From Planctomycetota bacterium (GTDB taxonomy: Bacteria > Planctomycetota > UBA8108 > JACQVS01): DNA of 64,000 bases. Shown here piece by piece: positions 6,247 through 19,527 of this stretch. Under the pieces are notes generated by a model. It was not told where the DNA came from, made no database searches, and saw only the letters and a program-made list of their open reading frames with translations. The translations under genes and the position numbers were made by a program. The stretch lies in the NCBI GenBank assembly GCA_016209605.1, contig JACQVS010000015.1, positions 87 through 64,086 of the forward strand. The letters are read 5' to 3'. The first letter of the stretch is position 1. Each line of letters begins with the position of its first letter.

Positions 6247-7199
6247 GCCCCGCTGATTACCCGCCGCCTCCCGGAGGCTCCACCGCCGCCACCGAGCCGC
6301 TCCGCCCGCCCGCCGCAGCCCGCGGCCGGAGCCTCCTCGAGTCGGTGAAGACCTTCGGCGAGATGATCAAGATCTCGCACTCGGTTTTCGCGTTGCCTTT
6401 CGCCGTGGCCGCCTTCTTCGTCGCCGCCGGCGGCGCGCCGGACTGGCTGCTCTTCCTCAAGGTTGTCCTCGCCTGCGTCTTCGCCCGCACCGCCGCCATG
6501 TCCTTCAACCGCTGGGCCGATGCCTCGATCGACGCCCGCAATCCGCGCACCCGCGGCCGCGCCCTCCCCGCCGGACAGCTCCACCGCGGCGCCGTCCTGG
6601 CGGCGTCGGCGGCCAGCGCGGCCCTCTTCATCGCCACCGCCTTCTGGATCAACTCTCTGGCCTTCCGGCTCTCTCCGGCGGCGCTCCTCGTGCTTCTCGG
6701 CTACTCCTACACCAAGCGCTTCACCTCGGCCTCGCACCTGGCCCTCGGGCTCGCCCTGGGGCTTTCGCCGCTGGGGGCATGGGTGGCGGCGCGCAACGAG
6801 CTGGCGCTCTTCCCCGCCCTGCTGGGCCTGGCGGTGCTCTTCTGGACCGCCGGCTTCGACATCATTTACGCCTGCCAGGACCTCGACTTCGACCGCCGGG
6901 AGAAGCTGTTGTCGATTCCGGCGCGCTGTGGGATCGCCCGCGCCTTGTGGATCTCCCGCCTGTTCCACCTGCTGACCCTGGGTCTCCTGGCCGTCTGCGG
7001 CTGGATAGCGGGCTTAGGCCCCGCCTACTTTTCTGGTATCATGATAGTTGGCGCGCTGCTCCTCTACGAGCAATGGGTTGTTCGCGGAGATGACCTGACG
7101 CGGGTCAATGTCGCCTTCTTCAACCTGAACGGTTTGATCAGCGTGATCTACATGACCGCCACCTTGATCGACCTTTTTCTTTTCAAACGCCAGCCATGA
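6243..7199 (+). CDS. ubiA: UbiA-family polyprenyltransferase (MqnP-like)
   Basis: IKISHSVFALPF, FNRWADASIDARNPRT, YSYTKRFT, GFDIIYACQDLDFD. Confidence 0.92.
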   Translation: MSPADYPPPPGGSTAATEPLRPPAAARGRSLLESVKTFGEMIKISHSVFALPFAVAAFFVAAGGAPDWLLFLKVVLACVFARTAAMSFNRWADASIDARNPRTRGRALPAGQLHRGAVLAASAASAALFIATAFWINSLAFRLSPAALLVLLGYSYTKRFTSASHLALGLALGLSPLGAWVAARNELALFPALLGLAVLFWTAGFDIIYACQDLDFDRREKLLSIPARCGIARALWISRLFHLLTLGLLAVCGWIAGLGPAYFSGIMIVGALLLYEQWVVRGDDLTRVNVAFFNLNGLISVIYMTATLIDLFLFKRQP

Positions 7200-8263
7200 G
7201 CTCGACCGAAGGATTTCTGCTGTCTGCTTACCTGCGCTCCAAAGGTCCGGTTCCTTACTCCAAGGCGGCCCGGATCGCCTGCGAGCTGTTGAAAATTCTG
7301 GAGAAGGCGCGGCAAGGCGGCGGCCCGGCGCCGCTGGCCATCCATCCGGGCCGCATCCACCTCGACGCGCGGGGGAAGGTGGATCTGCTGCCGGAGGAAT
7401 CCGGCGCGGCGCCGGAGGCGGATCGCCTGCTGGCATACCAGGCGCCGGAAGTGCTCGCGGGGAAGGCGGGCGACTGGCGGTCGGCCCTCTACTCCCTGGG
7501 AGCCACGCTCTTCGAGCTGCTCACCGGCCGGAAGGCGCGCTCCGGAGCCAGCGCCGCGGAGGTTCTGAAGGAGAAAGTTCCCGAGCTGCGAGAGCTCAAT
7601 CCAAGCATCCCCGTTTCCCTCGCGGCCATCGTCCAGTCGCTGCTCGCCGGCGATCCCCGGGCGCGGCCTCAGAGCCCCCTCCAGGTCCTGGAACGGATCC
7701 AGCAAGCCATGGGCTACGGCGCGAGCGCGGGCGCTGCGGCTCCTCGGCCGGCCGCCGCGCCCGCGCCGCGGCGGCCGCGGCCTGAAAAAACGCCGCGCCG
7801 GACCCCCGTCCCGGAGGAGTGGGAAGAGGAGAGTCCGGAGCGCTACGTGGTGGTCAAGCCCCGCCAGCGATACTTCACTTACGGCGGCATCGCCGTGGGC
7901 GGCATGATCTCGTTCTTCCTGGTCTTCACCGCGCTCAAGCGACACGACCAGCTTCCCAAACAGCAGGCCCAGCTCCTTCAAGCGCAAACCGAAGCGGCGG
8001 CCAGGGCCGTTCTCACCCAGCGCCTGGGCGAGCGCCGCCGGCAGTTCGAAAAGGAGGAGAAGGAGGCGGCCAGGCATCTGGAGCAGAAGCTGCAGCTCAA
8101 GATCTCCGACAACATGAAGATCACCGTCCTATCCGGCATGGTGGACCACTACTTTCACACCCCCAGCGGCCGGCTGATGGCGGAGGAGGTGGCCAAGCTG
8201 CGTCCGAAGCCCCAGATCGGCAATCCGGACCGCCCGCCGCCGAAAAAACAGGGTGAGAATTGA
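7196..8263 (+). CDS. Membrane-anchored Hanks-type pseudokinase (C-lobe only)
   Basis: YQAPE, ALYSLGATLFELLTG and DPRARP retained; no Gly-loop, VAIK, HRD or DFG; Pro-rich linker and one TM helix. Confidence 0.8.
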   Translation: MSSTEGFLLSAYLRSKGPVPYSKAARIACELLKILEKARQGGGPAPLAIHPGRIHLDARGKVDLLPEESGAAPEADRLLAYQAPEVLAGKAGDWRSALYSLGATLFELLTGRKARSGASAAEVLKEKVPELRELNPSIPVSLAAIVQSLLAGDPRARPQSPLQVLERIQQAMGYGASAGAAAPRPAAAPAPRRPRPEKTPRRTPVPEEWEEESPERYVVVKPRQRYFTYGGIAVGGMISFFLVFTALKRHDQLPKQQAQLLQAQTEAAARAVLTQRLGERRRQFEKEEKEAARHLEQKLQLKISDNMKITVLSGMVDHYFHTPSGRLMAEEVAKLRPKPQIGNPDRPPPKKQGEN

Positions 8264-9018
8264 ACAAACCGCGTCAGCGTCATTTGCTCTACTTCTTGAC
8301 CGGCCTGGTCGCCCTGCTCGTCTATTATCTCCAGCGCGGCGGCTTTCCACCCGCGTCCCAGCCTTCCCTCCCCCCCGACGATGCGGCGGTGTACGCGGAG
8401 CTCTCGCAAAAGGCGGAGTTCTCGCAACAGACTGGGCGCGGCTTCGGCCGCCTGGAGGGGCCGGTCGGCCGGGCCATTGACGGCGACACCATCCAGCTCC
8501 TCGATGGCACCCGGATTCGTTATCTCGCCGTCGACACCCCCGAGAAGGACGCCCCCTTTTACCGGCAAGCCCTGGAGCTCAACCGCCGACTCACAGAAGG
8601 CCAGCGGACCATCATCTTCACGGCCGCCAGACACCAAAAAGACGCCTATGGAAGGGTGCTGGGGGCGGTGTTCATCGAGACCGGCGGGCTCTCGGGCAGT
8701 TCTACCAATGCTTCCCCGACGGTCCTGCTCGTCAACGCGGAGCTGATCCGGCAAGGCCTGGCCCATCTTTACCTGAAGGACAGTAATCCGCTCACCGAGG
8801 CCCTCAAACCGGTCCTCCTCGAGGCCCAGGCCTGGGCCATTGACCACCAGCTCGGCCTCTTTCCGGGCGAGCTGAAGGCGGGCCAAGCGGTGCTGGCGAC
8901 CCGCTACCGCTACCACCGCCCCGGCTGCCAGAACCTCAAAGCCGGCGAAGGGAAGCCCATGGACCGCGAGACGGCGCTGCGCTCTGGCCGCAGTCCCTGC
9001 AGGACGTGCCGGCCGTGA
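8260..9018 (+). CDS. Thermonuclease (SNase family) with C-terminal Ada-like Zn-binding domain
   Basis: IDGDT, IRYLAVDTPE, DAYGRVLG, VNAELIRQGLA; C-terminal YHRPGC...PCRTCRP; N-terminal TM. Confidence 0.9.
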   Translation: MNKPRQRHLLYFLTGLVALLVYYLQRGGFPPASQPSLPPDDAAVYAELSQKAEFSQQTGRGFGRLEGPVGRAIDGDTIQLLDGTRIRYLAVDTPEKDAPFYRQALELNRRLTEGQRTIIFTAARHQKDAYGRVLGAVFIETGGLSGSSTNASPTVLLVNAELIRQGLAHLYLKDSNPLTEALKPVLLEAQAWAIDHQLGLFPGELKAGQAVLATRYRYHRPGCQNLKAGEGKPMDRETALRSGRSPCRTCRP

Positions 9019-9029
9019 GGGTTGAAAGG

Positions 9030-9887
9030 ATGGTTCGAATCATGCAAGAATCTCCAGAATTGCCCTGGTTGCGCGAGATGGTTCCTGAGGCCCTGGAAGG
9101 GCTCTTCCAGGAGAATGACGCCGAGATTCCCCGCACCGTGCAGCGGCTGGTTGAGCATATGGACTACGACCGCAACCTTGAGACCCAGCTCATCGAAACG
9201 CTGCAGACGGCCGTCGAGCAGCACAACGATGACACCCAGGGAGCCATCTGGATCGCTTTGATCCTTGGCGAAAAGCAGTGCCACCCGGCGATCCCCCTCC
9301 TCCTCACGGCCCTGGGCGAAGAGGAGGATGAAGAGCTGCAAGCGGCCGCGGGCATCGCCCTTCTCAAGATGGGCTCCCAGGGCGTCGAGTCCTTGATCGA
9401 ATCCCTGGAGGAGGAAAGTCCTTCGGTGGGTCTGCTGCAGGCCGGCTGTCGCCTGCTCGGCCACGTCGGCTACCTCGACGACCCCGACTTGCGCCAGCGG
9501 GCCATGGACTTCCTCCTCGAGCGGCTGGAGGCGGAAAAGCGCCGCCCCGGCGCCGATCTTCTGATCGAGAACATCGCCTCGGCGCTGGCCGAGCTGGGCG
9601 ACCGCCGAGCCATCCCGGCGCTTCAGGCCATCTTCCAGGAGCGCTTCCAGGAGAACAATGTCGCGCTCCAGGACGCCCTGGAAATGCTGGAGGAAAATCT
9701 CAACGGCCAGGCCCGAACCGGCGACTTCATCCCGGGGGAAGAGGATTACCGCTGGGCCTTCGAGGCGGAGCCGGAGTCGCAGGCAAAAAAGAAAGCAGGG
9801 GCCAAAAAATCCCGGCGCCGCCGGAAAGGCCTCACGAAGGATATGAAAAGATTCTACCGGGGCCTGGGAACGGAATTCGAGCCGTAA
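9030..9887 (+). CDS. HEAT-repeat protein
   Basis: PBS-lyase/HEAT-like repeats (ILGEKQCHPAIPLL, ALAELGDRRAIPAL); acidic body, basic tail; start uncertain. Confidence 0.8.
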   Translation: MVRIMQESPELPWLREMVPEALEGLFQENDAEIPRTVQRLVEHMDYDRNLETQLIETLQTAVEQHNDDTQGAIWIALILGEKQCHPAIPLLLTALGEEEDEELQAAAGIALLKMGSQGVESLIESLEEESPSVGLLQAGCRLLGHVGYLDDPDLRQRAMDFLLERLEAEKRRPGADLLIENIASALAELGDRRAIPALQAIFQERFQENNVALQDALEMLEENLNGQARTGDFIPGEEDYRWAFEAEPESQAKKKAGAKKSRRRRKGLTKDMKRFYRGLGTEFEP

Positions 9888-9968
9888 CTGAGCATGGGAT
9901 ACAATTCTTCGTGCCTTCGTGGTGATTCTTATGCCGGGTAAATCAGTTGGCTGTAGATTCAGGCGCGG

Positions 9969-11744
9969 CTAGAAGTCCGACTCATCCTCGTCCAAGTCGT
10001 CGATGAACTCCTCCCCTGGCGCTTCCTGGGCGCGCACGGCGGCTTTGGCGATATGCTTGAAGAGGAGAAGGTTCTCCGGGTTCTTGCGCAGCTGGTCCCA
10101 GCGAAAGTTCCAGGCCCGCTCCGACTGGTTTCCCGCCCCCAGGCTCGAGACGCAGGTGTTGGGCCACTTGTCGCTCAAGGAGTGGCGCAGCTGCCACGCC
10201 TTGCCGGAGTCGATGCCGCTCGCGGAGTCGAGCGCTTCCTTGGCATAGTACTTGGCCTGGTCGCGCAGGTCCCAGGCGCGCGGGTCTTCGGACCGGCCCA
10301 GCGTCTTGACGATGATCTTGGGGGCGCAGCGGAGGAATCGGACTCTCCACTCCCAGGACCGGTCGCTCTGCAGACCCCGCAAGCTCATCAGCACCCAGGG
10401 CAGGTACTCTTCGTGATGCTCCACGCGGATCTTCCAGGCCCGGTCGCTGTCGATGCCGCCCAGGCTGATCAGCAAGGCCGGGATCGCGGTGCGCTTGTCG
10501 GCCCGCTTCTCCCTCAGCGCCCAGGCCGGCTCGGAATCGATCCCTTGCAGGCTGATGAGCACCTCGTTGGGCGCCTTCTTGCGCAGCCGCTCCCGCAACA
10601 CCCAGGCCGAATCGGTCTCGTTGCCGCGCAGCGCCAGGGCGACCTGCTGGGGGGCAATTTCCGCCATTTGCTCGCGCATGGCGATGGCGCGGGGGTGGAA
10701 GGCCATTCCGGACAAGCTGGCGGCCACGTACAAGGGCTCGCGCTCCAGCAAGCGGGCCCGGAAGTTCATGCTCGGCTCGGAAACGCAGCCGCGCAGGCCG
10801 TGGGCGATCAGGGCCGGCTCCCGTTCGATCAGCTCCTCGCGGATCTCGTGGACTTCCATGATGTCAAAGCCGGAGATGAACAGCGCCGCGTAGGCGCTGC
10901 GGCCCGGCACCATGGCGCGGATCTGGTCGAAGAAGATCTTGATCGAGTGCTCCTGGCGCTTCTTGGCCTCGCCCATAGCCAACAGCTTCTCGACCGCCAC
11001 TTGAAGGGGAGAGGAGGTTTGTTTGTGCTTTTCGGCCTCCTCCAGGTTGGCCCAATGGGGATCGAGGATGGCGGGATAACCCTTCAACCTGAGGACCTCG
11101 CTGACGCGGTTGAAAATGCGCTGCAGCGACTCCTCGATGGTCGAGCGAGCGTTGTCGATGACGATCCAGGAGCCTTTGTTCTCCTCGGCCAGCTCCAGGA
11201 ATCCCTTGCGTATTTGCTCGCGGAAACCGATGCCCATGAGGCCCTTGCGGCCGAAATCCCCCAGCCGATGCTCGCGGATTTTCTGGAGCTTCTTGCGTAC
11301 CCGCGAGGTCAACGGATCGACATCGCAGTACACCACCAGATCCGGCCAGAGGCCGCCGGCGGCCATGCTCAGGACATGATCGACGATCTGGCGGTCGAGG
11401 CCGCGGCCGTGATGCGACTGGGTCAAGGCGGAGTAGAGGTACCGGTCGCTGAAGATGACATGACCCGGCTTCAGCTTGGGCCGGATGTACTCATCGATCA
11501 TCTGGGCATCGCGGGCGACATACAGCAGGAACTCGGTGACATCCGACATCCCCAGAAAGCTCGGATCGCGCGTCAGCTCGCGAATGGCGCGAGACACCTT
11601 GGAGCGGAAAACCCCCTGGTCGCGGGCGTGGTGCACCGGAATCCCTTGCGACTTGAGGTATTCGGCGAGGCGGTTGGACAAGGTGGTTTTACCACTCCCA
11701 TCGATTCCTTCAAAATCAATAAAAATCGGTTGCGGCTCCGCCAT
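9969..11744 (-). CDS. Thymidylate-kinase-like protein fused to C-terminal ~27-aa helical repeats
   Basis: FEGIDGSGKTT P-loop, DRYLYS, WPDLV; repeats of SLxGxDSxxAWxLR; AGGA before ATG 11744. Confidence 0.88.
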   Translation of the reverse strand: MAEPQPIFIDFEGIDGSGKTTLSNRLAEYLKSQGIPVHHARDQGVFRSKVSRAIRELTRDPSFLGMSDVTEFLLYVARDAQMIDEYIRPKLKPGHVIFSDRYLYSALTQSHHGRGLDRQIVDHVLSMAAGGLWPDLVVYCDVDPLTSRVRKKLQKIREHRLGDFGRKGLMGIGFREQIRKGFLELAEENKGSWIVIDNARSTIEESLQRIFNRVSEVLRLKGYPAILDPHWANLEEAEKHKQTSSPLQVAVEKLLAMGEAKKRQEHSIKIFFDQIRAMVPGRSAYAALFISGFDIMEVHEIREELIEREPALIAHGLRGCVSEPSMNFRARLLEREPLYVAASLSGMAFHPRAIAMREQMAEIAPQQVALALRGNETDSAWVLRERLRKKAPNEVLISLQGIDSEPAWALREKRADKRTAIPALLISLGGIDSDRAWKIRVEHHEEYLPWVLMSLRGLQSDRSWEWRVRFLRCAPKIIVKTLGRSEDPRAWDLRDQAKYYAKEALDSASGIDSGKAWQLRHSLSDKWPNTCVSSLGAGNQSERAWNFRWDQLRKNPENLLLFKHIAKAAVRAQEAPGEEFIDDLDEDESDF

Positions 11745-11878
11745 GGAGGTTTCCTGAACTGTCATGGATCTCATGGTCAAAAGATCTCTGAGAACAGGCC
11801 CATTTTACCCAAAAGATGCCTGAAAGACTACCGGGGTCCGACCTTTTCCCGGTCGTAAAATGCGGTTCCTTTTACGGG

Positions 11879-12805
11879 CTAGCTGGGATTCTCGGAGGAG
11901 TTTTCCTTGCTGTAATCCTGGCTGGAGTTGACGTTGGATTTTTTTCCCAGCCGGCGCTGGGGCGGCCGGACCTCCCCCGTGCCCCTCCCCCCCAAAGGCG
12001 TGTCGCCCATATTGAAGATGTCCGAGCCGTTGGCGCTGTCCAGCTCCCGGGTGAGCAGGTTGATGCTGGTGGTGAACTTCGAGACCCGCCGCGGCGGCAT
12101 GGATCCCAGTTCTTTCTCCAGCCACTCCGGATAGCGGTTCTCCTTGCACTTGATTTCCAGGATGACCTTGTTGATCGTCTGAATGGGCCTTCCCAGCGTC
12201 TGGCGGTTCAAGGACTCGACCCGGTCGTAAAGCCCGCGGACCGGCTGAAAAACCTCCAGATTTTCGTCAAAGGTCACTCTCAGCTCTTCTTCGTTCTTCT
12301 GGTACACCGTCCGCCGGTAGTTGATGATGGATCGGGGGCGAACGGTGTAATGCTGGAGATACCTTCTCAGCTCGTTGTAAACCTCCCCGAAATCATCAAA
12401 GGCCAGGCTGGGATCGGAGTTGACCAGCTGGTCCAGGATGTTCTTCCCCTCGAAAAGCTGGTTGATGAAGGATTTCGGCACCCTCAACCGCCGTTTGATC
12501 ACCAGACCTTCCACCCGTTGCTTGATCTCGACAAAGCAGCAAGGGAACCACTCGAGCGTTTTCCCATCGCCCAGCTCGTAATAATATTCCTTGACGCGAA
12601 TCTTGGTGTTGTTGTCGTAATGGTGAGTGGCGCGGTTGTAAAATTCGTAGAGATCGGTGTCGTAGTATATGGTGGAAATGAAGGTATGGGACCGGCCTCT
12701 GCGGAACTCGTAGAGGGGCAAATGCTTCGAAACCACTTCCTTGAGGCGCTTGGCCTCTTGCATCTCCAGCTCGTACTTGATTTCGCGTCGACCAAAGATA
12801 CTCAT
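11879..12805 (-). CDS. VTC-domain (polyphosphate polymerase-like, CYTH tunnel) protein
   Basis: RREIKY, STIYYDT, KIRVKEY, FVEIK, YRRTVY, LRVTFD, ILEIK, SKF. Confidence 0.9.
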   Translation of the reverse strand: MSIFGRREIKYELEMQEAKRLKEVVSKHLPLYEFRRGRSHTFISTIYYDTDLYEFYNRATHHYDNNTKIRVKEYYYELGDGKTLEWFPCCFVEIKQRVEGLVIKRRLRVPKSFINQLFEGKNILDQLVNSDPSLAFDDFGEVYNELRRYLQHYTVRPRSIINYRRTVYQKNEEELRVTFDENLEVFQPVRGLYDRVESLNRQTLGRPIQTINKVILEIKCKENRYPEWLEKELGSMPPRRVSKFTTSINLLTRELDSANGSDIFNMGDTPLGGRGTGEVRPPQRRLGKKSNVNSSQDYSKENSSENPS

Positions 12806-13060
12806 TGACGTCTTCACCACGCTCTGAAAAATTCACCGTGGGGGATTATGGCGTGCGGTTAATGGGCGATTGGAAGCTTCCTCGGGCTCCCTTCCCGGCA
12901 GGCACCCGGGAACGATGCAGGAACAAAAATTCCTTATCCCCTTCACGGCCCTTCCTTCCCCGGGTTGAAAAACGGTTTACAAGCTTCACTCTATTACAGA
13001 CAACCGTTATCGGAAGTAAAGGTGCTGAAACTAGATACTCCACTGAGAAAATTCAAGTCC

Positions 13061-13088
13061 ATTATAGCCAGGAGGGGGTCGATGTCAA
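13061..13088 (-). promoter_or_regulatory. Consensus sigma70 promoter facing the VTC gene
   Basis: Minus strand TTGACA (13088-13083), 16-bp spacer, TATAAT (13066-13061). Confidence 0.75.
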
Positions 13089-13122
13089 CAACCAGAAAAA
13101 AAAAGTGCCGGTCACCAATTTT

Positions 13123-14712
13123 TTAAAAATTGATCAGCAGCTGCACGATGAGCTCGTTCGAGTCCACCGCGCCGGCGCCGGTGGACTCGCGGTTGAAGAC
13201 GTACTCGGTCTTGATGTAGATCTTCTTGGTGACCGAGAGCACCCCGCCGACCAGGAACTGCCGGCGGTCCCAGGTGCCGGGGAGGCTGGGGACCTGATCC
13301 ATGCGGACATCGAGGACGCCGTAGCGCACCGTCGGCTCGACATAGTGGAAATAGTTGTCGATGAGCGGCTTGGGAAAGGAGAGGCGGTAAGAGCCCTGGA
13401 CATACCAGCCGTCGCGGTCGAGGTTGCCATCCTGCGCATCGATATACTGGAAGAAAGCGTATAGCCCATCCCCCTTGCGGGTGTCCATCAAGTCGAGCCA
13501 GTCGCGCAGCAGGTGGTAGGCCTCGAGGTGGTAGCCGGCGCTGAAGCCGATGCGCTTCTGGTAGTCCTTCTCGGAGTTGCCGTAGCCGGCGGTCGGAATG
13601 CCCGCCAGATCGCGGACGGTCAGGCCGTCCTGCAGGAAATCGATGGAGTCCTGATTGAGCCGGTTGTCGAAGAAAAAGAAGAGGAAGTCCAGCTCGCCAA
13701 GGAAGTTGAAGTCGCGCTCGTAGCCGATGCCGAAGCCCAGCTCCCGGAGCGACAGGCCGGTCTTCACGTTGCGGTCATCCTGGACGATCTCCTGGAGATT
13801 CGCCTGGTCCTTGCCGATCTCCTTGACCCCGAGAGTGTGGCCATCCCCCACCGAGAAGTGCAGGACCAGGGCGCCGGGATTGTTTTCGAAGTCGAACGGC
13901 TCGTGCTCGGTCGAGGAGGTCTGCGAGGCCCGCCCGTTGACCTCTTCCAGGGCCGGAGGGGCCTCATCCTCAGCGGCAGGGGCGGAGCGCCGGCGGGGAG
14001 GTTTCGGCGCCTTGGCCGGCTTGACCGGTTTCTCCACCTTGGCGCCGCGCTTGTTGCCGATGGTACCCTTCCACATCAAGGCGATCTCCTCATCGCGCCA
14101 GAAAGCGGTGCCGAGGAGCGGATAGGTCTCCGAGAGGCGGGCGCTGGGGCCGATGTGGATGAAGCGGTCGTCGAGGCCGATCTGCGACTCGGTACGGAAC
14201 CACCACTCGTGCTTCCAGTCGTGAAAGAAGCTCATTTCTTTAAGAAGGGTGTTGCCCCGGTCCGGGCGGAAGTCGAGCTGGCCGCGGATGCCCACGGCCT
14301 TGCCAACGTCGAGCTCGGGCTCGAGGCGCAGGCGGTCGAACTCGAGATGGGGGTCGGGATTGTCGGTGGTGCCGAGGAGCGAGTCGTGCTCCGACTCGGT
14401 GTCGACGAAGTTGAGCTCGAGCTTGCCGCCCAGGCGCAGCTCGGCGGCGCCGATGGTGATGACGCCCTTCGAGTAAACTTCCTTGGCAGCCTCGACGATG
14501 CTCTTCTTGACTTCCTTCGCGATCTCCTTCTCGATCTCCTTCTTCTGCGTCTTCTCGGTTTCGGCCTTCCATTGCTCGAGCTCCTGGAGGCGCAGCTCGA
14601 TCGACTCCCGGGAAGCCGGGCGCTCGCGCGGCTGGGCCAGGAGCGGGTCGCGGGGAAGGAAGGAGAACATCCCTCCTCCCAGGATCAGCAAGGTCAATAA
14701 TCGGCGCTTCAT
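13123..14712 (-). CDS. Outer-membrane beta-barrel / porin-like protein
   Basis: Signal peptide, N-terminal coiled coil, amphipathic strands (GWYVQGSY, IKTEY), terminal Phe. Confidence 0.8.
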   Translation of the reverse strand: MKRRLLTLLILGGGMFSFLPRDPLLAQPRERPASRESIELRLQELEQWKAETEKTQKKEIEKEIAKEVKKSIVEAAKEVYSKGVITIGAAELRLGGKLELNFVDTESEHDSLLGTTDNPDPHLEFDRLRLEPELDVGKAVGIRGQLDFRPDRGNTLLKEMSFFHDWKHEWWFRTESQIGLDDRFIHIGPSARLSETYPLLGTAFWRDEEIALMWKGTIGNKRGAKVEKPVKPAKAPKPPRRRSAPAAEDEAPPALEEVNGRASQTSSTEHEPFDFENNPGALVLHFSVGDGHTLGVKEIGKDQANLQEIVQDDRNVKTGLSLRELGFGIGYERDFNFLGELDFLFFFFDNRLNQDSIDFLQDGLTVRDLAGIPTAGYGNSEKDYQKRIGFSAGYHLEAYHLLRDWLDLMDTRKGDGLYAFFQYIDAQDGNLDRDGWYVQGSYRLSFPKPLIDNYFHYVEPTVRYGVLDVRMDQVPSLPGTWDRRQFLVGGVLSVTKKIYIKTEYVFNRESTGAGAVDSNELIVQLLINF

Positions 14713-14749
14713 TTTCTTCTCCGGTTATCGTTAGTTCATGACACTTTTC

Positions 14750-17700
14750 TTAACGGCATTCGAGATCATCCGGCGTCAGGTCCACACCCTCCTGCGGGTA
14801 AGGTTCGGGTATCCTCTGGCCGGCCTTGAACAGGAAGTTGAGCAGGAAGAGGCCATCGGCCACGTCCAGTTTGCCGTCATCGTTCGTGTCGAAGGCATCC
14901 AGGCAGGTCGGCCGCGGAACCTTCTCGAAGAGCACCCGGAACAGCCAGGCCGCATCGGAGATGTTGACCAGGCCGTTCTTGTTGGTGTCGCCGCGGATGA
15001 ACTTGCCTTGCGGGCAGAGGTCGACGGGGAACGGCCCCGCGTTCAGCTCGCCGCCGCGGGTGTCGACGAGATGCACGGTCACCGTCATGGCGCCGGCGCT
15101 CCCCGCGCTGAAGATCGCGTTGAAGCCGATGCGCGCCTGGCATGTCGGCGGCGCGGGAGTGAAACGGCGCGACAAGCTGAGCGGCATGGTCTCCTTCACC
15201 CCATCCCGGTCGATGATGAGCTCCGCGGTCCCGAGGCCGAAACCCGCCGGGCGCAGGACGACCTCGCGCAGGAAGACCAGGGAGTCCCCCTCGATTTGCA
15301 AGGTGTCGGCCGGCTTGACGCACTCGCCCGGCCGGCCGCCGATGACCTTGATGTTCACGGCCCCGGGGATCTCCGGCGCCTTGTAGAAATCACGGCAGTT
15401 GGTCTCGCCCGGCGTCGGCGCGGGGACGTTGAGGAGCTGGATGGTCGGATCGCCGTCCGGCAGGCGCCCGAAGGCGCGGTCCGGCCGCGGCGTGCAGTCG
15501 TTGTTCGTGAAGAAGCTCCAGGTGATCCGGTCGATCGGGCAGTTGCCATCGGCATCGCGCGAGAGCACGTGGAGGATCTCGTTGCAGTTGTCGAGGAGGA
15601 TGGTGTGGACGAGCAGCGTCTGCGTTTTTATGCCTTTCGCCTCCAGCACCTTCAGGTCGGGCTGGTCGTTCAGCGGATCGACGAAGAGGAAGAGCAGGAA
15701 CTCCTTGGGGGGGATGATGGTGCCGGCGGGGATGCGGTACTCGCGCACCTTGCCGATGAGGCCCGCGGGGCAGCCCGGCTGGTCCTTTTCGTCGGCGAGG
15801 AACATGTCCCCCACGTCGAGGGGCGAATCGCCGGCGTTGTACAGCTCGGCGAAGTCGGGCGGCTCGAGGTTGGGGTCGTCGTAAAGCTCCTTCAAGGTCG
15901 CCTCGCTCAAGGGGAGCGCCTCGTTCCAGACGAGGGGCGGCTTGGCCGGGCTGTAGGCGAAGCGGAAGGAGGCCAGGGGCGAGGCCGCCTCATCGTGGAT
16001 CGTCGGCTCGGCGAACGACGGGTCGATCTCCCCCTTCGCGGCCCGCTCCGCCAGCACCAGATCCTTGGCGCGGAAGAAGAAGGTCACCAGGGTCCCCCGC
16101 GGCCCCTCCGGCAGCACGGCGCTGAGGCGGTAGGCGGTGGCGCCGGCGACCGGCGCGGGATTGAAGCACTGGCGGTCGACCACCTCCGAGAGCGGCTCGA
16201 CGGTCAAGCCGTTCTGCCGGCTCAAGGTGACCGGCGCGGCATTGCCGGCCTGGTAAACCAGCTCGACCTCGAAGCTCGGCTTCTCCGGCGTGTCCTCCTT
16301 CACGGTGTCCTGGTCGATGCTCACGAAGGCGATGATCTGGGGCTTGTCGGCCGGCGGCTCCTCGATGGCCCGCGGGCAGCGCGGCAGCACCCACACCAGC
16401 TTCTCGAAGGCCGGCTTGATGTCGCAGGCCAGCAGGTTGGGGCCGCCGGGGGTCGGGCAGGTGAAGCGGCAGCCGGGCCGGAGGGTGCGGCGCTCCCGTC
16501 CGTCTTCCTCCTCAACGGTGCTGAGATCGCACTCGGAAGACGCTGGATGCTCGCCATCGCCGCCGCCTCCATCGGGATAGCGGCCGAAGGAGAGGTCGGG
16601 AGCGACCCCATCCGCCCCCTCCCCGGAGAAGTCGAACTCGGCGAGATCGACCACCTGGGTATCGGGGTCGAGGAGGGCGATCAGGTCGGGATCCAGTCTG
16701 CTCAACTGGAAGTCGGCGGAATACAGCCGCGCGCGCGTCCCCGGCTGGCCCGCTTCATAGTAGGTCTTGAAGGGGGGGTTGTCGCCGTCGGCGACGATCA
16801 GCAGGAACTCCTTCGGGTCGATGCGGTCGATGCAGACGGCATCGAAGCGCCAGAGGAACAAGCACTCCGGGGGGGTCGGATCCTCGAGGGGGCAGAGGTT
16901 GGAGAAGTCTTTATCGGGGGCGAAGCAGAGCGGCCTCTGGTCCGGTTTTCCCAGCTCGCCGAACTTGGTCAAGCCCACCAGCGAGTAGCCCTTCAGGGAG
17001 ACCGGCTGATCGCCGTAGTTGTAGATTTCGATCCAGTCGGAGCTCACCGGCCCGGACCCGGAGGGCTCCTCTTGAGCGTTGAACTTGTCGAAGAGGATGG
17101 TGCTGTGGTTGCGCGGCTGGTACTCGTTGATGACCACCGGCGGCAGCGGCCCGCCGACCACCTGGCAGTCCTCGCGGATGCTCTCCCCGACGATGTTCTC
17201 GACGCGGATGAGCAGGTCCAGCTTGGTGCCTGCCGGGCGGCGCGGAATCATTGCCGAGAGAACGATCCGGTGCATGGTGAAGCGGCAGGTCTTGCACGAC
17301 GGGAAGGTCTCCCCTTTGAAATTGCGCCGCGTTTCCTGAACGTCACTGCGGCGGATCTCGGTGAGCGGAATGGGCCCGGGAATCACCTCCAGAACCTCGC
17401 CGCGGGGGCAGGCGCTGACGACGCGGATCTCGACGATTTCCTTGGCGAGCAATTCGAGGTCCTCAAGAAGCGTCACCGTGACCGGAATCAGCTCCGGCTC
17501 GGGCCCCAGGGCTCCCAGGTTGCTGCGCCCAAGGTAGCGCGGCGGCTTGATGCCGATGGGCTTGTTGGGCATGCCGGGGGTGGGGACGTAGATGACCCCG
17601 TAATTCTTCTCGTCGCTCTGCGGCAGGCCATCGGGGTATCGACCGACCGCGACGTTATCCTCCTGCAGGGCGTAGCCGCGCTCCTCGAGGAGGCCGCGGC

Positions 17701-18211
17701 CGCGGCCGCCGAAGAGATGGAGCTTCTCGCCGCCCCCTCTCAGCCTGAAGGGAGCGTGCAGAGGCCCCTTCTCGGGCTGGTTGTCGCAAATCACCACCAG
17801 GAAGCCTTTGGCCGGGATGACCATGCCGTCGGGGAAGGTGAAGCGGCGCGGCCGGATGCGGTCATCGGAGAGGCTGTAGTCGGTGAGGTTGACCGGCTTC
17901 TCCAGGGGGTTGTAAATCTCCACCCAGTCGACCGGCTGGCCATCGGCATCGAGCGAGATGGTTTTATCAACTTCGGCGTAAAAATCGCTGAAGCGAATAG
18001 CCTGCGGAGCGGCATTGGCATTGGCGAAGATCTCATTGATGACCAAGGGCTCGAATCCGGCCCCTCCTCTCGAGCGCTTGCAGGAAGAGGCCGAAAACAA
18101 TAAGAGCGCCAGCCCGGCGGAGATGAGCAGGCGAAAAAACAGCTCTTCTCCGGCTCGCCGCGGGAAGTTGGGAAGGAACTGGATGTGGGTCAACAAACCC
18201 GGCTTCACCAT
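14750..18211 (-). CDS. Large Cys-rich lipoprotein with three lamin-tail domains and a C-terminal dockerin-like domain
   Basis: LVINE..DWVEIYN..GRYPDG, VVINE..DWIEIYN..GRYPDG, VWNE..DFAELYN..GRLPDG; FIRGDTNKNGLVNISDA; lipobox-like SASSC; start uncertain. Confidence 0.85.
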   Translation of the reverse strand: MVKPGLLTHIQFLPNFPRRAGEELFFRLLISAGLALLLFSASSCKRSRGGAGFEPLVINEIFANANAAPQAIRFSDFYAEVDKTISLDADGQPVDWVEIYNPLEKPVNLTDYSLSDDRIRPRRFTFPDGMVIPAKGFLVVICDNQPEKGPLHAPFRLRGGGEKLHLFGGRGRGLLEERGYALQEDNVAVGRYPDGLPQSDEKNYGVIYVPTPGMPNKPIGIKPPRYLGRSNLGALGPEPELIPVTVTLLEDLELLAKEIVEIRVVSACPRGEVLEVIPGPIPLTEIRRSDVQETRRNFKGETFPSCKTCRFTMHRIVLSAMIPRRPAGTKLDLLIRVENIVGESIREDCQVVGGPLPPVVINEYQPRNHSTILFDKFNAQEEPSGSGPVSSDWIEIYNYGDQPVSLKGYSLVGLTKFGELGKPDQRPLCFAPDKDFSNLCPLEDPTPPECLFLWRFDAVCIDRIDPKEFLLIVADGDNPPFKTYYEAGQPGTRARLYSADFQLSRLDPDLIALLDPDTQVVDLAEFDFSGEGADGVAPDLSFGRYPDGGGGDGEHPASSECDLSTVEEEDGRERRTLRPGCRFTCPTPGGPNLLACDIKPAFEKLVWVLPRCPRAIEEPPADKPQIIAFVSIDQDTVKEDTPEKPSFEVELVYQAGNAAPVTLSRQNGLTVEPLSEVVDRQCFNPAPVAGATAYRLSAVLPEGPRGTLVTFFFRAKDLVLAERAAKGEIDPSFAEPTIHDEAASPLASFRFAYSPAKPPLVWNEALPLSEATLKELYDDPNLEPPDFAELYNAGDSPLDVGDMFLADEKDQPGCPAGLIGKVREYRIPAGTIIPPKEFLLFLFVDPLNDQPDLKVLEAKGIKTQTLLVHTILLDNCNEILHVLSRDADGNCPIDRITWSFFTNNDCTPRPDRAFGRLPDGDPTIQLLNVPAPTPGETNCRDFYKAPEIPGAVNIKVIGGRPGECVKPADTLQIEGDSLVFLREVVLRPAGFGLGTAELIIDRDGVKETMPLSLSRRFTPAPPTCQARIGFNAIFSAGSAGAMTVTVHLVDTRGGELNAGPFPVDLCPQGKFIRGDTNKNGLVNISDAAWLFRVLFEKVPRPTCLDAFDTNDDGKLDVADGLFLLNFLFKAGQRIPEPYPQEGVDLTPDDLECR

Positions 18212-18345
18212 AAAAGATCTAAGGAGCGCAAAATGCGTCCACTGGACATGGCTTGAAATCCATAAAGCCATATCCGCTCACTTATTCCAAACCACTTTCA
18301 ATGATAGCAGAAAGCCCTTCTTTTGACTATGCCGTTCCCGAGGCC

Positions 18346-19527
18346 TTACCCGCGGCGGTAGACCCGCTGGCCGCGAAGATAAGTCTCTTCGACCACGAGG
18401 CGGGAGGACAGCACCACCAGATCGGCGCCTCTGCCCGGGGCGATCTCGCCCGCGTCCTTCCAGCCCAGCAGCCGGGCCGGGGCGCGGGTCAACGCCGTGA
18501 CGGCGGCGGCGGGATCCGCTCCCACCGCCTCCACCTGCACCCGCAAGGCGCGGTCGAGGGTCAAGGCGCTGCCCGCCAGGGTGCCGTTCCGCCGGGCGAC
18601 GCGGCCGGCCTTCAGCTCCACGTCCACGCCGGCGAAGACGTAAAGGCCATCCTCCAGGCCGCAAGGGTGCACAGAATCGCTGACCAGGCAGATCAGATCG
18701 CCGGGCTTGAGCCGCTCCACCCAGCGCAGCACCGCCGGATCGACGTGGAAGCCGTCGCTGATGAGCTCCACCCGCACCCGCTCGTCTTCCAGAAATGCCG
18801 ACACCGGCCCGGGACGGCGATGGTGGATGCCGTCCATGGCGTTGAAGAGGTGGGTGACGTAGCGGATGCCGGCCTGGATGGCCCGCCGGGCCTCCTCGTA
18901 GCCGGCGCCGGAGTGGCCGAAGGCCGGCACCACCCGGCGGCGCCGGAGATGCCGGACCAGCTCGAGGCCGCCGGGGCGCTCCGGGGCCAGGGTCATGGTC
19001 CGCACCAGCCCCCGGCCGGCCCGCAGGTACTCCTCGAGCAGCCTGGGAGAGTAGGTCCTGAAGTGCCTTCGCGGCAAAGCGCCGGGATGGCCGGGATCCA
19101 GGAACGGCCCCTCGAGATGGAGCCCGGCGGCCGTTCCCAGGCCGGCGCCGCCGGCAATGGCCGAGGCAAGGCGCTCGAGCGCCGCGAGAAATTCCCTCTT
19201 CGGCCCGGGATAGAGGCTGGCGAGGAGGCGGGTCACGCCGTGAGGCAGGTAGTGCTCGCGCACCACCTTCTCGAGCTCCGCGGCGCCGGCCGAGTTGAAG
19301 TCGATCCCGAGAGCCCCGTGGGTGTGGAGGTCGATGAAGCCGGGGGCCAGGCAGCGCCCCTCGAGGTCGACGCGCCCGAGCGCCCTCGCCCGGCGCCTCC
19401 CCCGCCGCAGCGCCTCCTTTCCCAGCGCCGTGATCCGGCCCCCCTCCACCGCCACCGGCACGCCGGAAACGATCCGGTCCGGGAGGAAGAGGCTTCCCCC
19501 CCGAAAGAGAATTCCTGATGACATCAT
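18346..19527 (-). CDS. nagA: N-acetylglucosamine-6-phosphate deacetylase
   Basis: PGFIDLHTHG, GLHLEGPF, MTLAPE, THLFNAM, DGFHV, LAGSALT. Confidence 0.95.
   Translation of the reverse strand: MMSSGILFRGGSLFLPDRIVSGVPVAVEGGRITALGKEALRRGRRRARALGRVDLEGRCLAPGFIDLHTHGALGIDFNSAGAAELEKVVREHYLPHGVTRLLASLYPGPKREFLAALERLASAIAGGAGLGTAAGLHLEGPFLDPGHPGALPRRHFRTYSPRLLEEYLRAGRGLVRTMTLAPERPGGLELVRHLRRRRVVPAFGHSGAGYEEARRAIQAGIRYVTHLFNAMDGIHHRRPGPVSAFLEDERVRVELISDGFHVDPAVLRWVERLKPGDLICLVSDSVHPCGLEDGLYVFAGVDVELKAGRVARRNGTLAGSALTLDRALRVQVEAVGADPAAAVTALTRAPARLLGWKDAGEIAPGRGADLVVLSSRLVVEETYLRGQRVYRRG

What the first reader, a model, noticed from the sequence alone, without database searches (positions are those of the whole stretch)
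9969..18211. Lamin-tail/dockerin lipoprotein, porin, VTC protein and repeat-fused Tmk-like kinase: candidate surface-linked polyphosphate/phosphotransfer system
Seen: four consecutive minus-strand genes encoding a 3x lamin-tail lipoprotein with a dockerin-like tail, a beta-barrel, a VTC-domain protein and a P-loop kinase. Known: the VTC domain is the catalytic tunnel of yeast Vtc4 polyphosphate polymerase; bacterial VTC genes commonly neighbour DUF4956 and CotH/lamin-tail genes, and their function is unresolved. Neither DUF4956 nor CotH is recognisable here. Inference: a trans-envelope module that makes or uses polyphosphate (or another phosphopolymer) and links it to a surface scaffold, with the Tmk-like enzyme as a dedicated partner rather than the housekeeping dTMP kinase.
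Basis: partly seen in the sequence, partly recalled or inferred. Interest (0 to 1): 0.75.

Follow-up and report, generated by a model that had tools for sequence, protein, structure and literature searches.

The report
Polyphosphate polymerase, kinase and porin cluster
A bacterial cousin of yeast's polyphosphate-making enzyme is kept next to an odd thymidylate-kinase-like protein and a phosphate-type outer-membrane pore in two distant bacterial phyla, which points to an undescribed phosphate-storage module.

Summary
The four minus-strand genes are real: an LTD x3/dockerin lipoprotein (14750-18271), a beta-barrel porin (13123-14712), a VTC protein (11879-12820), and a Tmk-domain protein carrying a 370-residue alpha-solenoid (9969-11780). 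They form two units: LTD+porin, and VTC+Tmk behind a conserved sigma-70-type promoter.

In 80 VTC loci from species genomes, the Tmk-solenoid gene lies within 2.2 kb of VTC in 64. Among loci with at least 5 kb on both sides it is 44 of 47. This holds in Planctomycetota and Myxococcota alike. The genes around the pair are phosphate genes: a porin (OprO/OprP-like fold here, Pfam Porin_O_P in Myxococcota), a Na/Pi cotransporter (Myxococcota) and sometimes DUF4956. All nine Vtc4 catalytic residues are kept.

LTD occurs only in close relatives, where the whole ~17-kb neighbourhood is syntenic. The best reading is a phosphate-uptake/polyphosphate module whose core is VTC + Tmk-solenoid. The surface-scaffold idea is not supported.

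It stays open whether the kinase is the housekeeping dTMP kinase or an exapted polyphosphate-linked kinase, like archaeal PPK3. The P-loop and DRY motif are kept, the 'EP' motif is lost, and TIGR00041 scores straddle the cutoff. No genome-wide search for a second tmk was possible.

The parts
14750..18271 (-). LTD x3 / dockerin lipoprotein-like protein (1173 aa from the first ATG; the likely start is Met21 at 18211). A lineage-specific neighbour, probably co-transcribed with the porin, and not part of the conserved core.
   Evidence: Pfam gives LTD at E 1e-24 in 3 stretches and Dockerin_1 at 25.4 bits. There is a 37-bp gap to the porin gene. Homologues occur in 13 of 19 Planctomycetota loci and 0 of 61 Myxococcota loci. 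The ESM Atlas gives only generic LTD/dockerin clusters, with scores of 0.83 or less.
13123..14712 (-). Outer-membrane beta-barrel porin with an N-terminal signal peptide and a coiled coil (residues 36-81). The fold is closest to the phosphate/pyrophosphate porins OprO and OprP.
   Evidence: The AF2 model has pLDDT 83.1. The top Foldseek PDB hits are OprO 4rjw (E 1.2e-11) and OprP 2o4v (E 2.5e-11), with general porins only slightly behind. One search found 41 homologues (one of them the window's own protein), none with a Pfam domain. The porin is present in 16 of 19 Planctomycetota VTC loci.
13061..13088 (-). Sigma-70-type promoter (TTGACA-16-TATAAT, 12 of 12 matches) in the 302-bp porin-VTC spacer. 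It heads the VTC-Tmk transcription unit.
   Evidence: Found by the promoter scan. A TTGACN-N15-19-TANNNT element occurs in the same spacer in 16 of 17 sequences (the window plus 15 of 16 Planctomycetota loci; L001 lacks it).
11879..12820 (-). VTC-domain protein, a Vtc4-like triphosphate-tunnel enzyme and candidate polyphosphate polymerase. It has no SPX or transmembrane domain, and its C-terminal tail (about residues 256-313) is not conserved.
   Evidence: PF09359, E 2e-33. A family profile hits Vtc4 structures at E 5.5e-16. The nine Vtc4 catalytic positions map to K15, R75, K77, K100, Y168, R170, E222, S247 and K248. They are conserved in 78 sequences from both phyla.
11088..11723 (-). Thymidylate-kinase-fold P-loop kinase domain of the fusion protein (residues 20-231 of ORF 9969-11780).
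   Evidence: PF02223 at E 1e-25 and TIGR00041 at 96.3 bits. The best PDB match is Aquifex Tmk at E 5e-25, against E 6.5e-11 for the PPK3-type S. tokodaii protein 2plr/5h70. The P-loop FEGIDGSGKT and the DRY motif are conserved, while the 'EP' motif proline is absent in 60 of 61 family members.
9969..11075 (-). C-terminal alpha-solenoid of the fusion (residues 236-603): about 12 helical hairpins with a period of about 27 residues, and a recurrent A-W-x-x-R motif. No Pfam family matches it.
   Evidence: AF2 gives pLDDT 92.8 and pTM 0.87. No PDB match reaches E<0.001. None of the 56 family members shows a consistent Pfam match. A profile of the domain finds 543 representatives at E<=1e-3, mostly Tmk fusions of 550-600 aa.
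9810..9826 (-). Terminator-like hairpin followed by a T-run, about 140 nt downstream of the kinase stop codon. It lies inside the 3' end of the convergent HEAT-repeat gene.
   Evidence: Found by the terminator scan and visible in the sequence.

Best explanation
The region holds a phosphate-acquisition and polyphosphate module. Its evolutionarily conserved core is a cytoplasmic Vtc4-like polyphosphate polymerase (VTC) co-transcribed with a thymidylate-kinase-fold P-loop kinase that is fused to an alpha-solenoid.

Proposed working, all of it inferred:
1. Phosphate crosses the outer membrane through the adjacent OprO/OprP-like porin.
2. It reaches the cytoplasm through transporters encoded elsewhere in this genome. 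In Myxococcota a Na/Pi cotransporter lies in the same operon.
3. VTC polymerises the gamma-phosphate of ATP into polyphosphate.
4. The Tmk-solenoid protein acts with VTC as a nucleotide/phosphoryl-transfer partner. It either couples polyphosphate to nucleotide phosphorylation or ties dTDP/dTTP synthesis to the phosphate store.

The LTD/dockerin lipoprotein is a lineage-specific neighbour of the porin, not a core part of the module.

Shown here: the domain identities, the retained catalytic residues, the operon layout and the cross-phylum linkage. Inferred: every enzymatic activity and every physical contact.
For: 1. Linkage. A VTC-profile scan of one genome per species returned 80 loci, 19 from Planctomycetota and 61 from Myxococcota. 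A Tmk-solenoid gene, matching in both the kinase and the repeat part, lies near VTC in 17 of 19 and 47 of 61 loci. Among loci with at least 5 kb on both sides it is 9 of 9 and 35 of 38. The median gap is 921 bp and the maximum 2170 bp, and 60 of 64 pairs are on the same strand. Counted by assembly, 17 of 18 and 46 of 56 have a linked locus.

2. Phosphate context.
- In Myxococcota the tight same-strand operon reads porin - Tmk-solenoid - (DUF4956) - DUF3108-like - VTC - Na/Pi cotransporter.
- The Na/Pi cotransporter (PF02690, E down to 2e-29) is present in 50 of 61 Myxococcota loci.
- The Myxococcota porins match Pfam Porin_O_P in 10 of 22 scanned, best E 2.8e-7, and match no other family.
- DUF4956 occurs in 3 of 19 and 8 of 61 loci. 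Counting L013, Pfam confirms it at E<1e-3 in 10 of 11 and above the gathering score in 7 of 11.
- In L012, L013 and L015 the cluster is porin-VTC-Tmk-DUF4956 with no LTD.

3. The window porin model's best PDB hits are OprO and OprP.

4. All nine residues that bind triphosphate/Mn in Vtc4 are kept in 78 VTC sequences. This includes the Lys458 equivalent, which is lost in the inactive Vtc2/Vtc3 (passages of bioRxiv 10.1101/2023.01.27.525886). Only R266 is replaced, by Lys.

5. VTC-Tmk has its own conserved promoter in 16 of 17 spacers.

6. Precedent. Proteins with a dTMPK fold do act as polyphosphate kinases in archaeal PPK3. There the ATP site is kept and the TMP-binding 'EP' motif is lost (bioRxiv 10.1101/2024.08.28.610084, abstract and section 10). 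In the family studied here the EP proline is absent in 60 of 61 members. The residues aligned to Aquifex Tmk's A-Y-Q differ between the two phyla (T-H-S versus V-L-G/A).
Against: - No activity was measured.
- The window itself lacks any inner-membrane phosphate transporter or DUF4956.
- The window's porin family has no sequence-level link to Porin_O_P. None of 16 members hit the Pfam model at E<=1. hhalign against the Myxococcota porins gives probability 1.7%. General porins score almost as well as OprO/OprP in Foldseek.
- Within close Planctomycetota relatives the entire ~17-kb neighbourhood is syntenic, so the porin linkage there is weak evidence.
- Three of 38 long-flank Myxococcota VTC loci lack the kinase (L041, L042, L055). 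Two of these (L042, L055) are extra VTC copies in assemblies that have a linked locus elsewhere.
- The kinase domain looks more like a true dTMP kinase than like PPK3 (E 5e-25 versus 6.5e-11). It keeps the TMPK-specific P-loop Asp (passages of PMC3169407; conserved in 58 of 61). It passes the TIGR00041 cutoff in 22 of 34 members tested.
- The solenoid is not basic overall (median pI 6.4, net charge -1), so it is not an obvious polyanion binder.
- The same repeat also occurs in unrelated transglutaminase-core proteins.
Confidence: 0.55

Rival explanations
1. The Tmk-solenoid protein is simply the housekeeping dTMP kinase of these lineages with an added scaffold domain. VTC and the phosphate genes sit beside it through co-regulation of the phosphorus budget or through inherited gene order, with no shared biochemistry.
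For: - TIGR00041 (an equivalog model) scores 96.3 bits against a cutoff of 83.25 for the window protein, and is above cutoff in 22 of 34 family members.
- The closest solved structures are genuine Tmks.
- The type-II TMPK P-loop GIDGSGKT with its TMPK-specific Asp, the DRY motif and the LID arginines are conserved.
- The kinase domain is the most conserved protein of the neighbourhood (70-78% identity in 13 of 17 loci, 62-64% in L012/L013/L015, 33% in L016), against 36-52% for VTC (29% in L016).
- The family is large: 557 clusters.
- No second tmk is present in the 64-kb window.
Against: - The same fusion stays in a tight operon with VTC in two phyla, with different gene orders. That is hard to explain by inherited synteny alone.
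- The EP motif and the A-Y-Q positions of the dTMP site are not conserved.
- Twelve of 34 members fall below the equivalog cutoff, down to 37 bits.
- One MAG carries two diverged copies of the whole cluster (L024 and L040, 78.6% nucleotide identity).
Confidence: 0.3
2. One reading: a trans-envelope system in which polyphosphate (or another phosphopolymer) made by VTC is passed outward and attached to the LTD/dockerin surface scaffold.
For: - The four genes are consecutive on one strand and co-occur in 11 of 19 Planctomycetota loci.
- Bacterial VTC genes beside secreted CotH kinases and a 4-TM protein are described in a Streptococcus pel operon, function undetermined (passages of bioRxiv 10.1101/2024.04.20.589940).
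Against: - LTD is absent in 0 of 61 Myxococcota loci, and in L012, L013 and L015, which keep the other three genes.
- A conserved promoter separates LTD-porin from VTC-Tmk.
- The window has no inner-membrane exporter, DUF4956 or CotH.
- Unrelated flanking genes are equally syntenic.
Confidence: 0.07
3. VTC here is not a polymerase. It is a triphosphate-tunnel hydrolase acting on a nucleotide or inorganic triphosphate, paired with the dTMP kinase for (d)NTP homeostasis.
For: - Triphosphate tunnel enzymes act on many triphosphate substrates (search listing and abstract starts only, PMC4641920 and PMC9582702).
- The partner gene is a nucleotide kinase.
Against: - The family matches Vtc4 specifically (E 5.5e-16), against 7e-08 for Vtc2 and 1.4e-04 for Vtc3. 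It keeps the Lys458 equivalent that separates active Vtc4 from Vtc2/3.
- The neighbours are phosphate-transport genes and DUF4956, not nucleotide-metabolism genes.
Confidence: 0.08

Closest known systems
Yeast Vtc4 catalytic (central, TTM) domain of the VTC polyphosphate polymerase complex
   Same: The same Pfam domain (PF09359). A family profile hits Vtc4 structures at E 5.5e-16. All nine triphosphate/Mn-binding residues are retained.
   Different: There is no SPX domain, no C-terminal transmembrane domain and no Vtc1/2/3/5 partners. The protein is a 313-aa soluble protein. Its partner genes are a Tmk-fold kinase, porins, a Na/Pi transporter and DUF4956.
Firmicutes-type bacterial VTC clusters (VTC + 4-TM/DUF4956 protein + secreted CotH kinase), e.g. 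the extra genes of the Streptococcus intermedius pel operon
   Same: A stand-alone VTC domain with its catalytic residues. DUF4956 is found in some related loci (3 of 19 Planctomycetota, 8 of 61 Myxococcota).
   Different: The window VTC is only about 25-30% identical to that group. There is no CotH and no DUF4956 in the window. The Tmk-solenoid partner is not mentioned in the passages I read of that paper.
Archaeal/bacterial PPK3 (a polyphosphate kinase with a dTMPK fold; Saci_2019/2020, S. tokodaii STK_15430)
   Same: A thymidylate-kinase fold with P-loop and DRX motif kept and the TMP-binding EP motif lost. It is encoded beside other polyphosphate genes.
   Different: The window kinase is closer to canonical Tmk than to 2plr/5h70. 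It is a single gene, not a catalytic+regulatory pair. It carries a solenoid. Its neighbours are VTC and porins, not PPX/CHAD/Pst. In the Data S1 rows I saw for Planctomycetota and Myxococcota, PPK3 = 0.
Pseudomonas OprP/OprO phosphate- and pyrophosphate-selective porins (Pfam Porin_O_P)
   Same: They are the top structural matches of the window porin model. The equivalent operon position in Myxococcota is held by proteins that match Porin_O_P.
   Different: No sequence-level match for the window's family. The window porin has an extra N-terminal coiled coil. The arginine ladder was not examined.
Canonical bacterial type-II dTMP kinase (TIGR00041)
   Same: The P-loop GIDGSGKT with the TMPK-specific Asp, the DRY motif, a basic LID, and an HMM score above the cutoff.
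   Different: There is a 370-residue C-terminal solenoid. The EP and A-Y-Q positions are not conserved. Family scores run from 37 to 103 bits around the 83.25 cutoff. The genomic context is VTC and phosphate genes.

Membership tests
VTC domain / Vtc4-type polyphosphate polymerase | Match to PF09359 above the gathering score | tested here: met
   116.3 bits against a cutoff of 23, covering residues 11-255.
VTC domain / Vtc4-type polyphosphate polymerase | Triphosphate/Mn-binding residues K200, R264, R266, K281, Y359, R361, E426, S457, K458 | tested here: met
   They map to K15, R75, K77, K100, Y168, R170, E222, S247 and K248 (alignment; residue list from passages of bioRxiv 10.1101/2023.01.27.525886). 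They are conserved in 78 sequences.
VTC domain / Vtc4-type polyphosphate polymerase | SPX domain and membrane-channel domain or partner subunits of the eukaryotic VTC complex | tested here: not met
   The protein is 313 aa with only the VTC domain. No Vtc1-like or DUF4956 gene is present in the window.
VTC domain / Vtc4-type polyphosphate polymerase | ATP-dependent polyphosphate synthesis | not testable with these tools
   This needs an enzyme assay.
dTMP kinase (TIGR00041 equivalog / PF02223) | HMM score above the curated cutoff | tested here: inconclusive
   The window protein scores 96.3 against 83.25. Across 34 family members, 22 are above and 12 below the cutoff, with a range of 37-103 bits.
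dTMP kinase (TIGR00041 equivalog / PF02223) | P-loop with the TMPK-specific Asp, the DRY/DRX arginine and a basic LID | tested here: met
   FEGIDGSGKT, D112-R113-Y114, and R160/R162/K163/K164/R178/K179 are conserved. The motif meaning comes from passages of PMC3169407.
dTMP kinase (TIGR00041 equivalog / PF02223) | dTMP-site 'EP' motif and the base/sugar-reading residues after DRY..S | tested here: not met
   The proline is absent in 60 of 61 members and the Glu is present in 22 of 61. A-Y-Q of Aquifex aligns to T-Q-S in the window, T-H-S in Planctomycetota and V-L-G/A in Myxococcota. The role of A-Y-Q is recalled from memory and comes from no call.
dTMP kinase (TIGR00041 equivalog / PF02223) | Being the genome's only (essential) tmk | not testable with these tools
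PPK3 (dTMPK-fold polyphosphate kinase) | Placement in the PPK3 clade, apart from canonical dTMPK | tested here: not met
   The window kinase is closer to Aquifex Tmk (E 5e-25) than to the PPK3-type 2plr/5h70 (E 6.5e-11). The Data S1 rows seen for these phyla list PPK3 = 0. No joint tree could be built because no canonical sequences were on hand.
PPK3 (dTMPK-fold polyphosphate kinase) | A catalytic + regulatory paralogue pair in one operon | tested here: not met
   There is one kinase gene per cluster in the window and in the loci. The requirement comes from section 8 of PMC12995831.
Porin_O_P (OprO/OprP phosphate-selective porins) | Match to PF07396 | tested here: not met
   None of 16 members of the window's porin family match at E<=1. 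The Myxococcota counterparts match in 10 of 22.
Porin_O_P (OprO/OprP phosphate-selective porins) | Porin beta-barrel fold closest to OprO/OprP | tested here: inconclusive
   OprO and OprP rank 1, 3 and 4 (E 1.2e-11 to 2.5e-11; query-normalised TM-score (TMq) 0.45-0.46), but OmpT, OmpU and Omp32 follow at E 1e-11 to 1e-9.
Porin_O_P (OprO/OprP phosphate-selective porins) | Lumenal arginine ladder / lysine cluster giving phosphate selectivity | not tested
Many invariant Arg residues exist, but their orientation is unknown.
Bacterial VTC-DUF4956-CotH cluster | Adjacent DUF4956 membrane protein and CotH kinase | tested here: not met
   The window has neither. DUF4956 is present in 3 of 19 and 8 of 61 related loci. 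CotH was not seen in any ORF scanned from the loci (only 35 ORFs were scanned).
Lamin-tail-domain / dockerin surface proteins | PF00932 and PF00404 above their cutoffs | tested here: met
   LTD scores 87.5 bits (cutoff 34.3) and Dockerin_1 scores 25.4 bits (cutoff 22.9).

The most novel reading that the evidence does not exclude
The Tmk-solenoid family is a second, independent exaptation of the dTMP-kinase fold into polyphosphate metabolism, separate from PPK3. It would be a polyphosphate-linked nucleotide (or dTMP) kinase working as the obligate partner of a bacterial Vtc4-type polymerase. VTC would build the polymer, and the kinase would draw on it or prime it. The carrier genomes would encode a canonical tmk elsewhere.
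Probability: 0.25. Interest if true: 0.85.

Novelty: new variant of a known kind. Interest (0 to 1): 0.62.

Why it matters
- I found no assigned function for bacterial VTC-domain proteins. In the one paper passage that discusses one, its role is said to remain undetermined.
- A partner gene kept across two phyla, inside a cluster with phosphate porins and transporters, gives a concrete and testable biochemical hypothesis for them.
- If the Tmk-fold partner proves to be polyphosphate-linked, it would be a second case, after PPK3 (2024-2026), of genome annotation hiding polyphosphate enzymes under the name 'dTMP kinase'. It would also challenge that paper's conclusion that the fold was exapted only once (section 8 of PMC12995831).
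- If the partner is instead the only dTMP kinase, its fusion to a solenoid and its fixed coupling to a polyphosphate polymerase would link DNA-precursor supply to phosphate storage in Planctomycetota and Polyangia-type Myxococcota.
- I found no paper on this pairing: 'DUF4956'+'VTC' gave 0 papers, 'thymidylate kinase'+'VTC domain' gave 0, and 'polyphosphate polymerase'+'Planctomycet' gave 0. Subscription journals are not covered by that library.

Tried and rejected
- Co-folding of the Tmk-solenoid (alignment A6) with VTC (alignment A1): the job ran once and returned 'no answer' (score 0.00 in two runs, controls not folded). This counts neither for nor against binding.
- Profile-profile comparison of the window's porin family with the Myxococcota Porin_O_P-like porins: not significant (probability 1.7%). 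A profile search of the porin family against PDB sequences found nothing meaningful.
- ESM Atlas on the solenoid gave no usable hit. On the LTD protein it gave only generic LTD/dockerin clusters at 0.83 or less.
- Rfam scan of 9700-18600 at E<=1: no match.
- The long leader between the promoter and VTC is not conserved as an RNA element. In closer relatives, part of it looks like an N-terminal extension of VTC. I dropped this line.
- The idea that the solenoid's conserved arginines form a polyphosphate-binding ladder is weakened. The domain is not basic overall (median pI 6.4), and the repeat also occurs in transglutaminase-core proteins. I had no model coordinates to check side-chain exposure.
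- I tried to infer VTC-less genomes by matching contig lengths. Contigs of 7,869,199, 1,857,803, 46,692, 24,790 and 13,265 bp list both the kinase and the porin but no VTC. I rejected this as evidence. The VTC of the 53,655-bp contig of L003 is present in the DNA but is also missing's list.
- Pairwise-distance correlation between VTC and kinase (r 0.75-0.88) is expected for any two genes sharing genomes, so I did not use it as evidence.
- The listing of cluster members, intended to get organism names and neighbouring accession numbers, was switched off.

Full report
**What is in the window**

The window is high-GC chromosomal DNA (0.57-0.70). LPS genes elsewhere in it (LpxK, heptosyltransferase) and many dockerin/LTD proteins fit a Gram-negative bacterium. 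Every close homologue that carries a name is from Planctomycetota.

Four consecutive minus-strand ORFs occupy 9969-18271:
- A 1173-aa protein with three LTD copies and a C-terminal Dockerin_1.
- A 529-aa protein with no Pfam or NCBIfam match.
- A 313-aa VTC-domain protein (PF09359, E 2e-33).
- A 603-aa protein whose first ~230 residues are a thymidylate-kinase domain (PF02223, E 1e-25; TIGR00041 at 96.3 bits against a cutoff of 83.25).

Pfam scans of 47 distinct window ORFs found neither. A phmmer search with a DUF4956 protein from a related locus over all six-frame ORFs of the 64 kb found no DUF4956.

**Anatomy**

- The intergenic gaps are 37 bp (LTD-porin), 302 bp (porin-VTC) and 98 bp (VTC-kinase).
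- The 302-bp spacer holds a perfect TTGACA-16-TATAAT promoter at 13088-13061. A TTGACN-N15-19-TANNNT element sits in the same spacer in 16 of 17 sequences examined: the window and 15 of 16 related loci, with L001 the exception.
- A terminator-like hairpin follows the kinase gene at 9826-9810.
- The region therefore reads as two transcription units, LTD+porin and VTC+kinase.
- Rfam finds nothing in the region, and the leader upstream of VTC is not conserved as an RNA.

**The unknown 529-aa protein**

With a 42-row alignment (the window, 37 of the 40 other hits, and three locus ORFs), AlphaFold2 gives pLDDT 83.1 and pTM 0.79. The model has a signal-peptide helix, a coiled coil at residues 36-81 and a beta-barrel.

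Foldseek against the PDB ranks Pseudomonas OprO (4rjw, E 1.2e-11) first and OprP (2o4v, E 2.5e-11) fourth. General porins such as OmpT, OmpU and Omp32 are close behind, and the query-normalised TM-score (TMq) is only 0.45-0.46. It is a porin. 'Phosphate-selective' remains a lead, because the family has no sequence match to Pfam Porin_O_P (0 of 16).

**The VTC protein**

A profile of 49 family members (the window plus 48 of the 52 close hits; left out were the window's own P0001 and three low-coverage rows) hits yeast Vtc4 structures at E 5.5e-16. It hits Vtc2/3 only at 7e-08 to 1e-03.

The cryo-EM paper on VTC (passages read) lists K200, R264, R266, K281, R361 and K458 together with S457, Y359 and the Mn-binding E426 as essential. 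It notes that K458 is the one residue lost in inactive Vtc2/3. In the printed alignment these map to K15, R75, K77, K100, Y168, R170, E222, S247 and K248.

Across 78 VTC sequences from both phyla (ORFs of at least 230 aa, 78 of 80), each position is conserved. The only variation is Lys/Arg exchange at two positions and one or two odd rows. The enzyme looks catalytically competent. It has no SPX or membrane domain.

**The kinase fusion**

*C-terminal half.* Residues 236-603 fold with pLDDT 92.8 into about 12 helical hairpins with a period of about 27 residues. Seven copies of W-x-x-R (six of them A-W-x-x-R) are visible in the window protein.
- It has no PDB match at E<0.001 and no Pfam family.
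- A profile of it finds 543 representatives at E<=1e-3 among 1.84 billion.
- Most of these are 550-600-aa proteins matched from about residue 250 onward, that is, the same fusion.
- There are also proteins of 950-2400 aa, of which 9 of the 14 scanned carry a transglutaminase core, and stand-alone proteins of about 350 aa.
- The repeat is thus a generic, undescribed solenoid module. It is not basic overall (median pI 6.4).

*Kinase half.* It is closest to Aquifex Tmk (E 5e-25). The S. tokodaii protein 2plr/5h70, now regarded as a PPK3 catalytic subunit, scores only E 6.5e-11.

In 61 family members (ORFs of at least 520 aa, 61 of 65 hits), several features are conserved:
- the P-loop FEGIDGSGKT, including the Asp that passages of PMC3169407 call unique to TMPKs;
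- the DRY motif;
- a basic LID.

Against that, the 'EP' motif proline is absent in 60 of 61. The positions aligned to Aquifex A-Y-Q differ between the phyla. TIGR00041 scores of 34 members run from 37 to 103 bits, with 22 above and 12 below the cutoff.

**Comparative genomics**

It returned 80 loci: 19 from Planctomycetota MAGs and 61 from Myxococcota (Polyangia, Nannocystales and Haliangiales types, including Paraliomyxa miuraensis).

I located the window's proteins in the loci with tblastn. I also ran HMMs built from families found in the loci. The counts are:

| Gene near VTC | Planctomycetota (n=19) | Myxococcota (n=61) |
|---|---|---|
| Tmk-solenoid | 17 (9 of 9 with >=5-kb flanks) | 47 (35 of 38 with >=5-kb flanks) |
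| Porin | 16 | 39 |
| Na/Pi cotransporter (PF02690) | 0 | 50 |
| DUF3108-like | 0 | 51 |
| DUF4956 | 3 | 8 |
| LTD | 13 | 0 |

- The maximum VTC-to-kinase gap is 2170 bp, and 60 of 64 pairs are on the same strand.
- The 16 loci without the kinase are mostly cut by contig ends. The three long-flank exceptions are L041, L042 and L055. Two of them (L042, L055) are extra VTC copies in assemblies that hold a linked locus elsewhere.
- Myxococcota operons read porin - kinase - (DUF4956) - DUF3108-like - VTC - Na/Pi cotransporter, with overlapping or abutting ORFs.
- Their porins match Porin_O_P in 10 of 22 scanned, and no other family.
- In the more distant Planctomycetota loci L012, L013 and L015 the cluster starts at the porin, with a divergent RACo-type gene upstream. 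It reads porin-VTC-kinase-DUF4956, without LTD.
In those loci UbiA, UbiX, a kinase-like gene, SNase, a HEAT protein, an amidohydrolase, a phospholipase C and SIS-CBS are also in place. The LTD linkage therefore carries no independent weight.
- A FastTree of 60 kinase sequences puts 15 Planctomycetota rows in one clade (support 100). L016 falls with six Myxococcota rows. This means either one exchange between the phyla or a binning error.

**Interpretation**

The conserved unit is VTC plus the Tmk-solenoid, embedded in genes for phosphate entry. The best-supported reading is a phosphate-uptake and polyphosphate module.

The role of the kinase is the open point. Two 2024-2026 papers show that dTMPK-fold proteins annotated as thymidylate kinase are the polyphosphate kinase (PPK3) of Sulfolobus. 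There the ATP site is kept and the TMP-binding EP motif is lost, and the genes lie beside other polyphosphate genes. (What I read: bioRxiv 10.1101/2024.08.28.610084 abstract, section 10 and passages; PMC12995831 passages, section 8 and parts of Data S1.)

The family here shares the lost EP motif and the polyphosphate context. It differs in four ways:
- it is nearer to canonical Tmk;
- it is a single gene;
- it has a solenoid;
- in the Data S1 rows I saw for these phyla, PPK3 is scored 0.

It could be an independent exaptation, or it could be the housekeeping dTMP kinase. I could not look for a second tmk in the carrier genomes.

**Novelty**

- Bacterial VTC next to CotH and a 4-TM protein is mentioned for a Streptococcus pel operon, with function undetermined (passages).
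- I found no paper linking VTC to a thymidylate-kinase-like gene, or describing VTC in Planctomycetota (0 papers).
- The library omits most subscription journals. The figures and PDF supplements of the PPK3 papers, which map dTMPK neighbourhoods, were not visible to me and may bear on this claim.

**Verdict**

A VTC-kinase partnership and a polyphosphate theme hold up. A surface-linked scaffold system does not.
- It is a new variant of known polyphosphate gene clusters, of moderate-to-high interest because it yields direct assays for an unassigned enzyme family.

Noticed in passing
window 9969-11075 (-); proteins P0319, P0328, P0336, P0377, P0397, P0402, P0418, P0427: The A-W-x-x-R alpha-solenoid repeat of the kinase fusion has no Pfam model. 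It also occurs in 950-2400-aa proteins with a transglutaminase core (9 of 14 scanned) and in stand-alone proteins of about 350 aa. It looks like an undescribed repeat family.
   Followed up: partly
window 26226-28430 (-): A 734-aa protein whose GreA/GreB N- and C-terminal domains occupy only about the last 155 residues. It has a roughly 580-residue N-terminal extension with no Pfam match.
   Followed up: no
window 22355-23626 (-): A 423-aa actin/MreB-like protein (MreB_Mbl E 9e-18, Actin E 8e-11, weak Salactin/Volactin hits), followed by a DUF2225 gene at 24020-24748.
   Followed up: no
window 30288-31580 (-): A second dockerin-bearing protein (430 aa, Dockerin_1 at residues 346-396) with no other recognised domain.
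   Followed up: no
L024:1-2921 and L040:1800-6200: One Polyangiaceae MAG (DASUTR01) carries two copies of the kinase-DUF4956-DUF3108-like-VTC cluster. They are 78.6% identical over 1.8 kb. This is either paralogous clusters or a mixed bin.
   Followed up: partly
L016:223-2885: A MAG labelled Planctomycetota (SCS4bin.42) has the Myxococcota-style order (kinase then VTC). Its kinase groups with six Myxococcota sequences in the tree. This is either a transfer between phyla or mis-binning.
   Followed up: partly
Myxococcota loci, e.g. L043:9138-9932, L018:8516-9941: One or two DUF3108-like genes (PF21347, weak: one of three scanned is above the gathering score of 27) sit immediately upstream of VTC in 51 of 61 Myxococcota loci. 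They are absent from Planctomycetota, and their role in the cluster is unknown.
   Followed up: partly
window 12001-14000: GC drops to 0.573 here, against 0.63-0.66 on either side. The VTC gene has first- and second-codon-position GC of 0.52 and 0.35, the lowest among the ORFs of 300 aa or more listed.
   Followed up: no
window 5581-9887 (+): A plus-strand run of UbiX-like flavoprotein, UbiA prenyltransferase, a partial protein-kinase-like protein, an SNase-domain protein and a HEAT/PBS-lyase repeat protein converges on the kinase gene. It is syntenic in the close Planctomycetota relatives.
   Followed up: no
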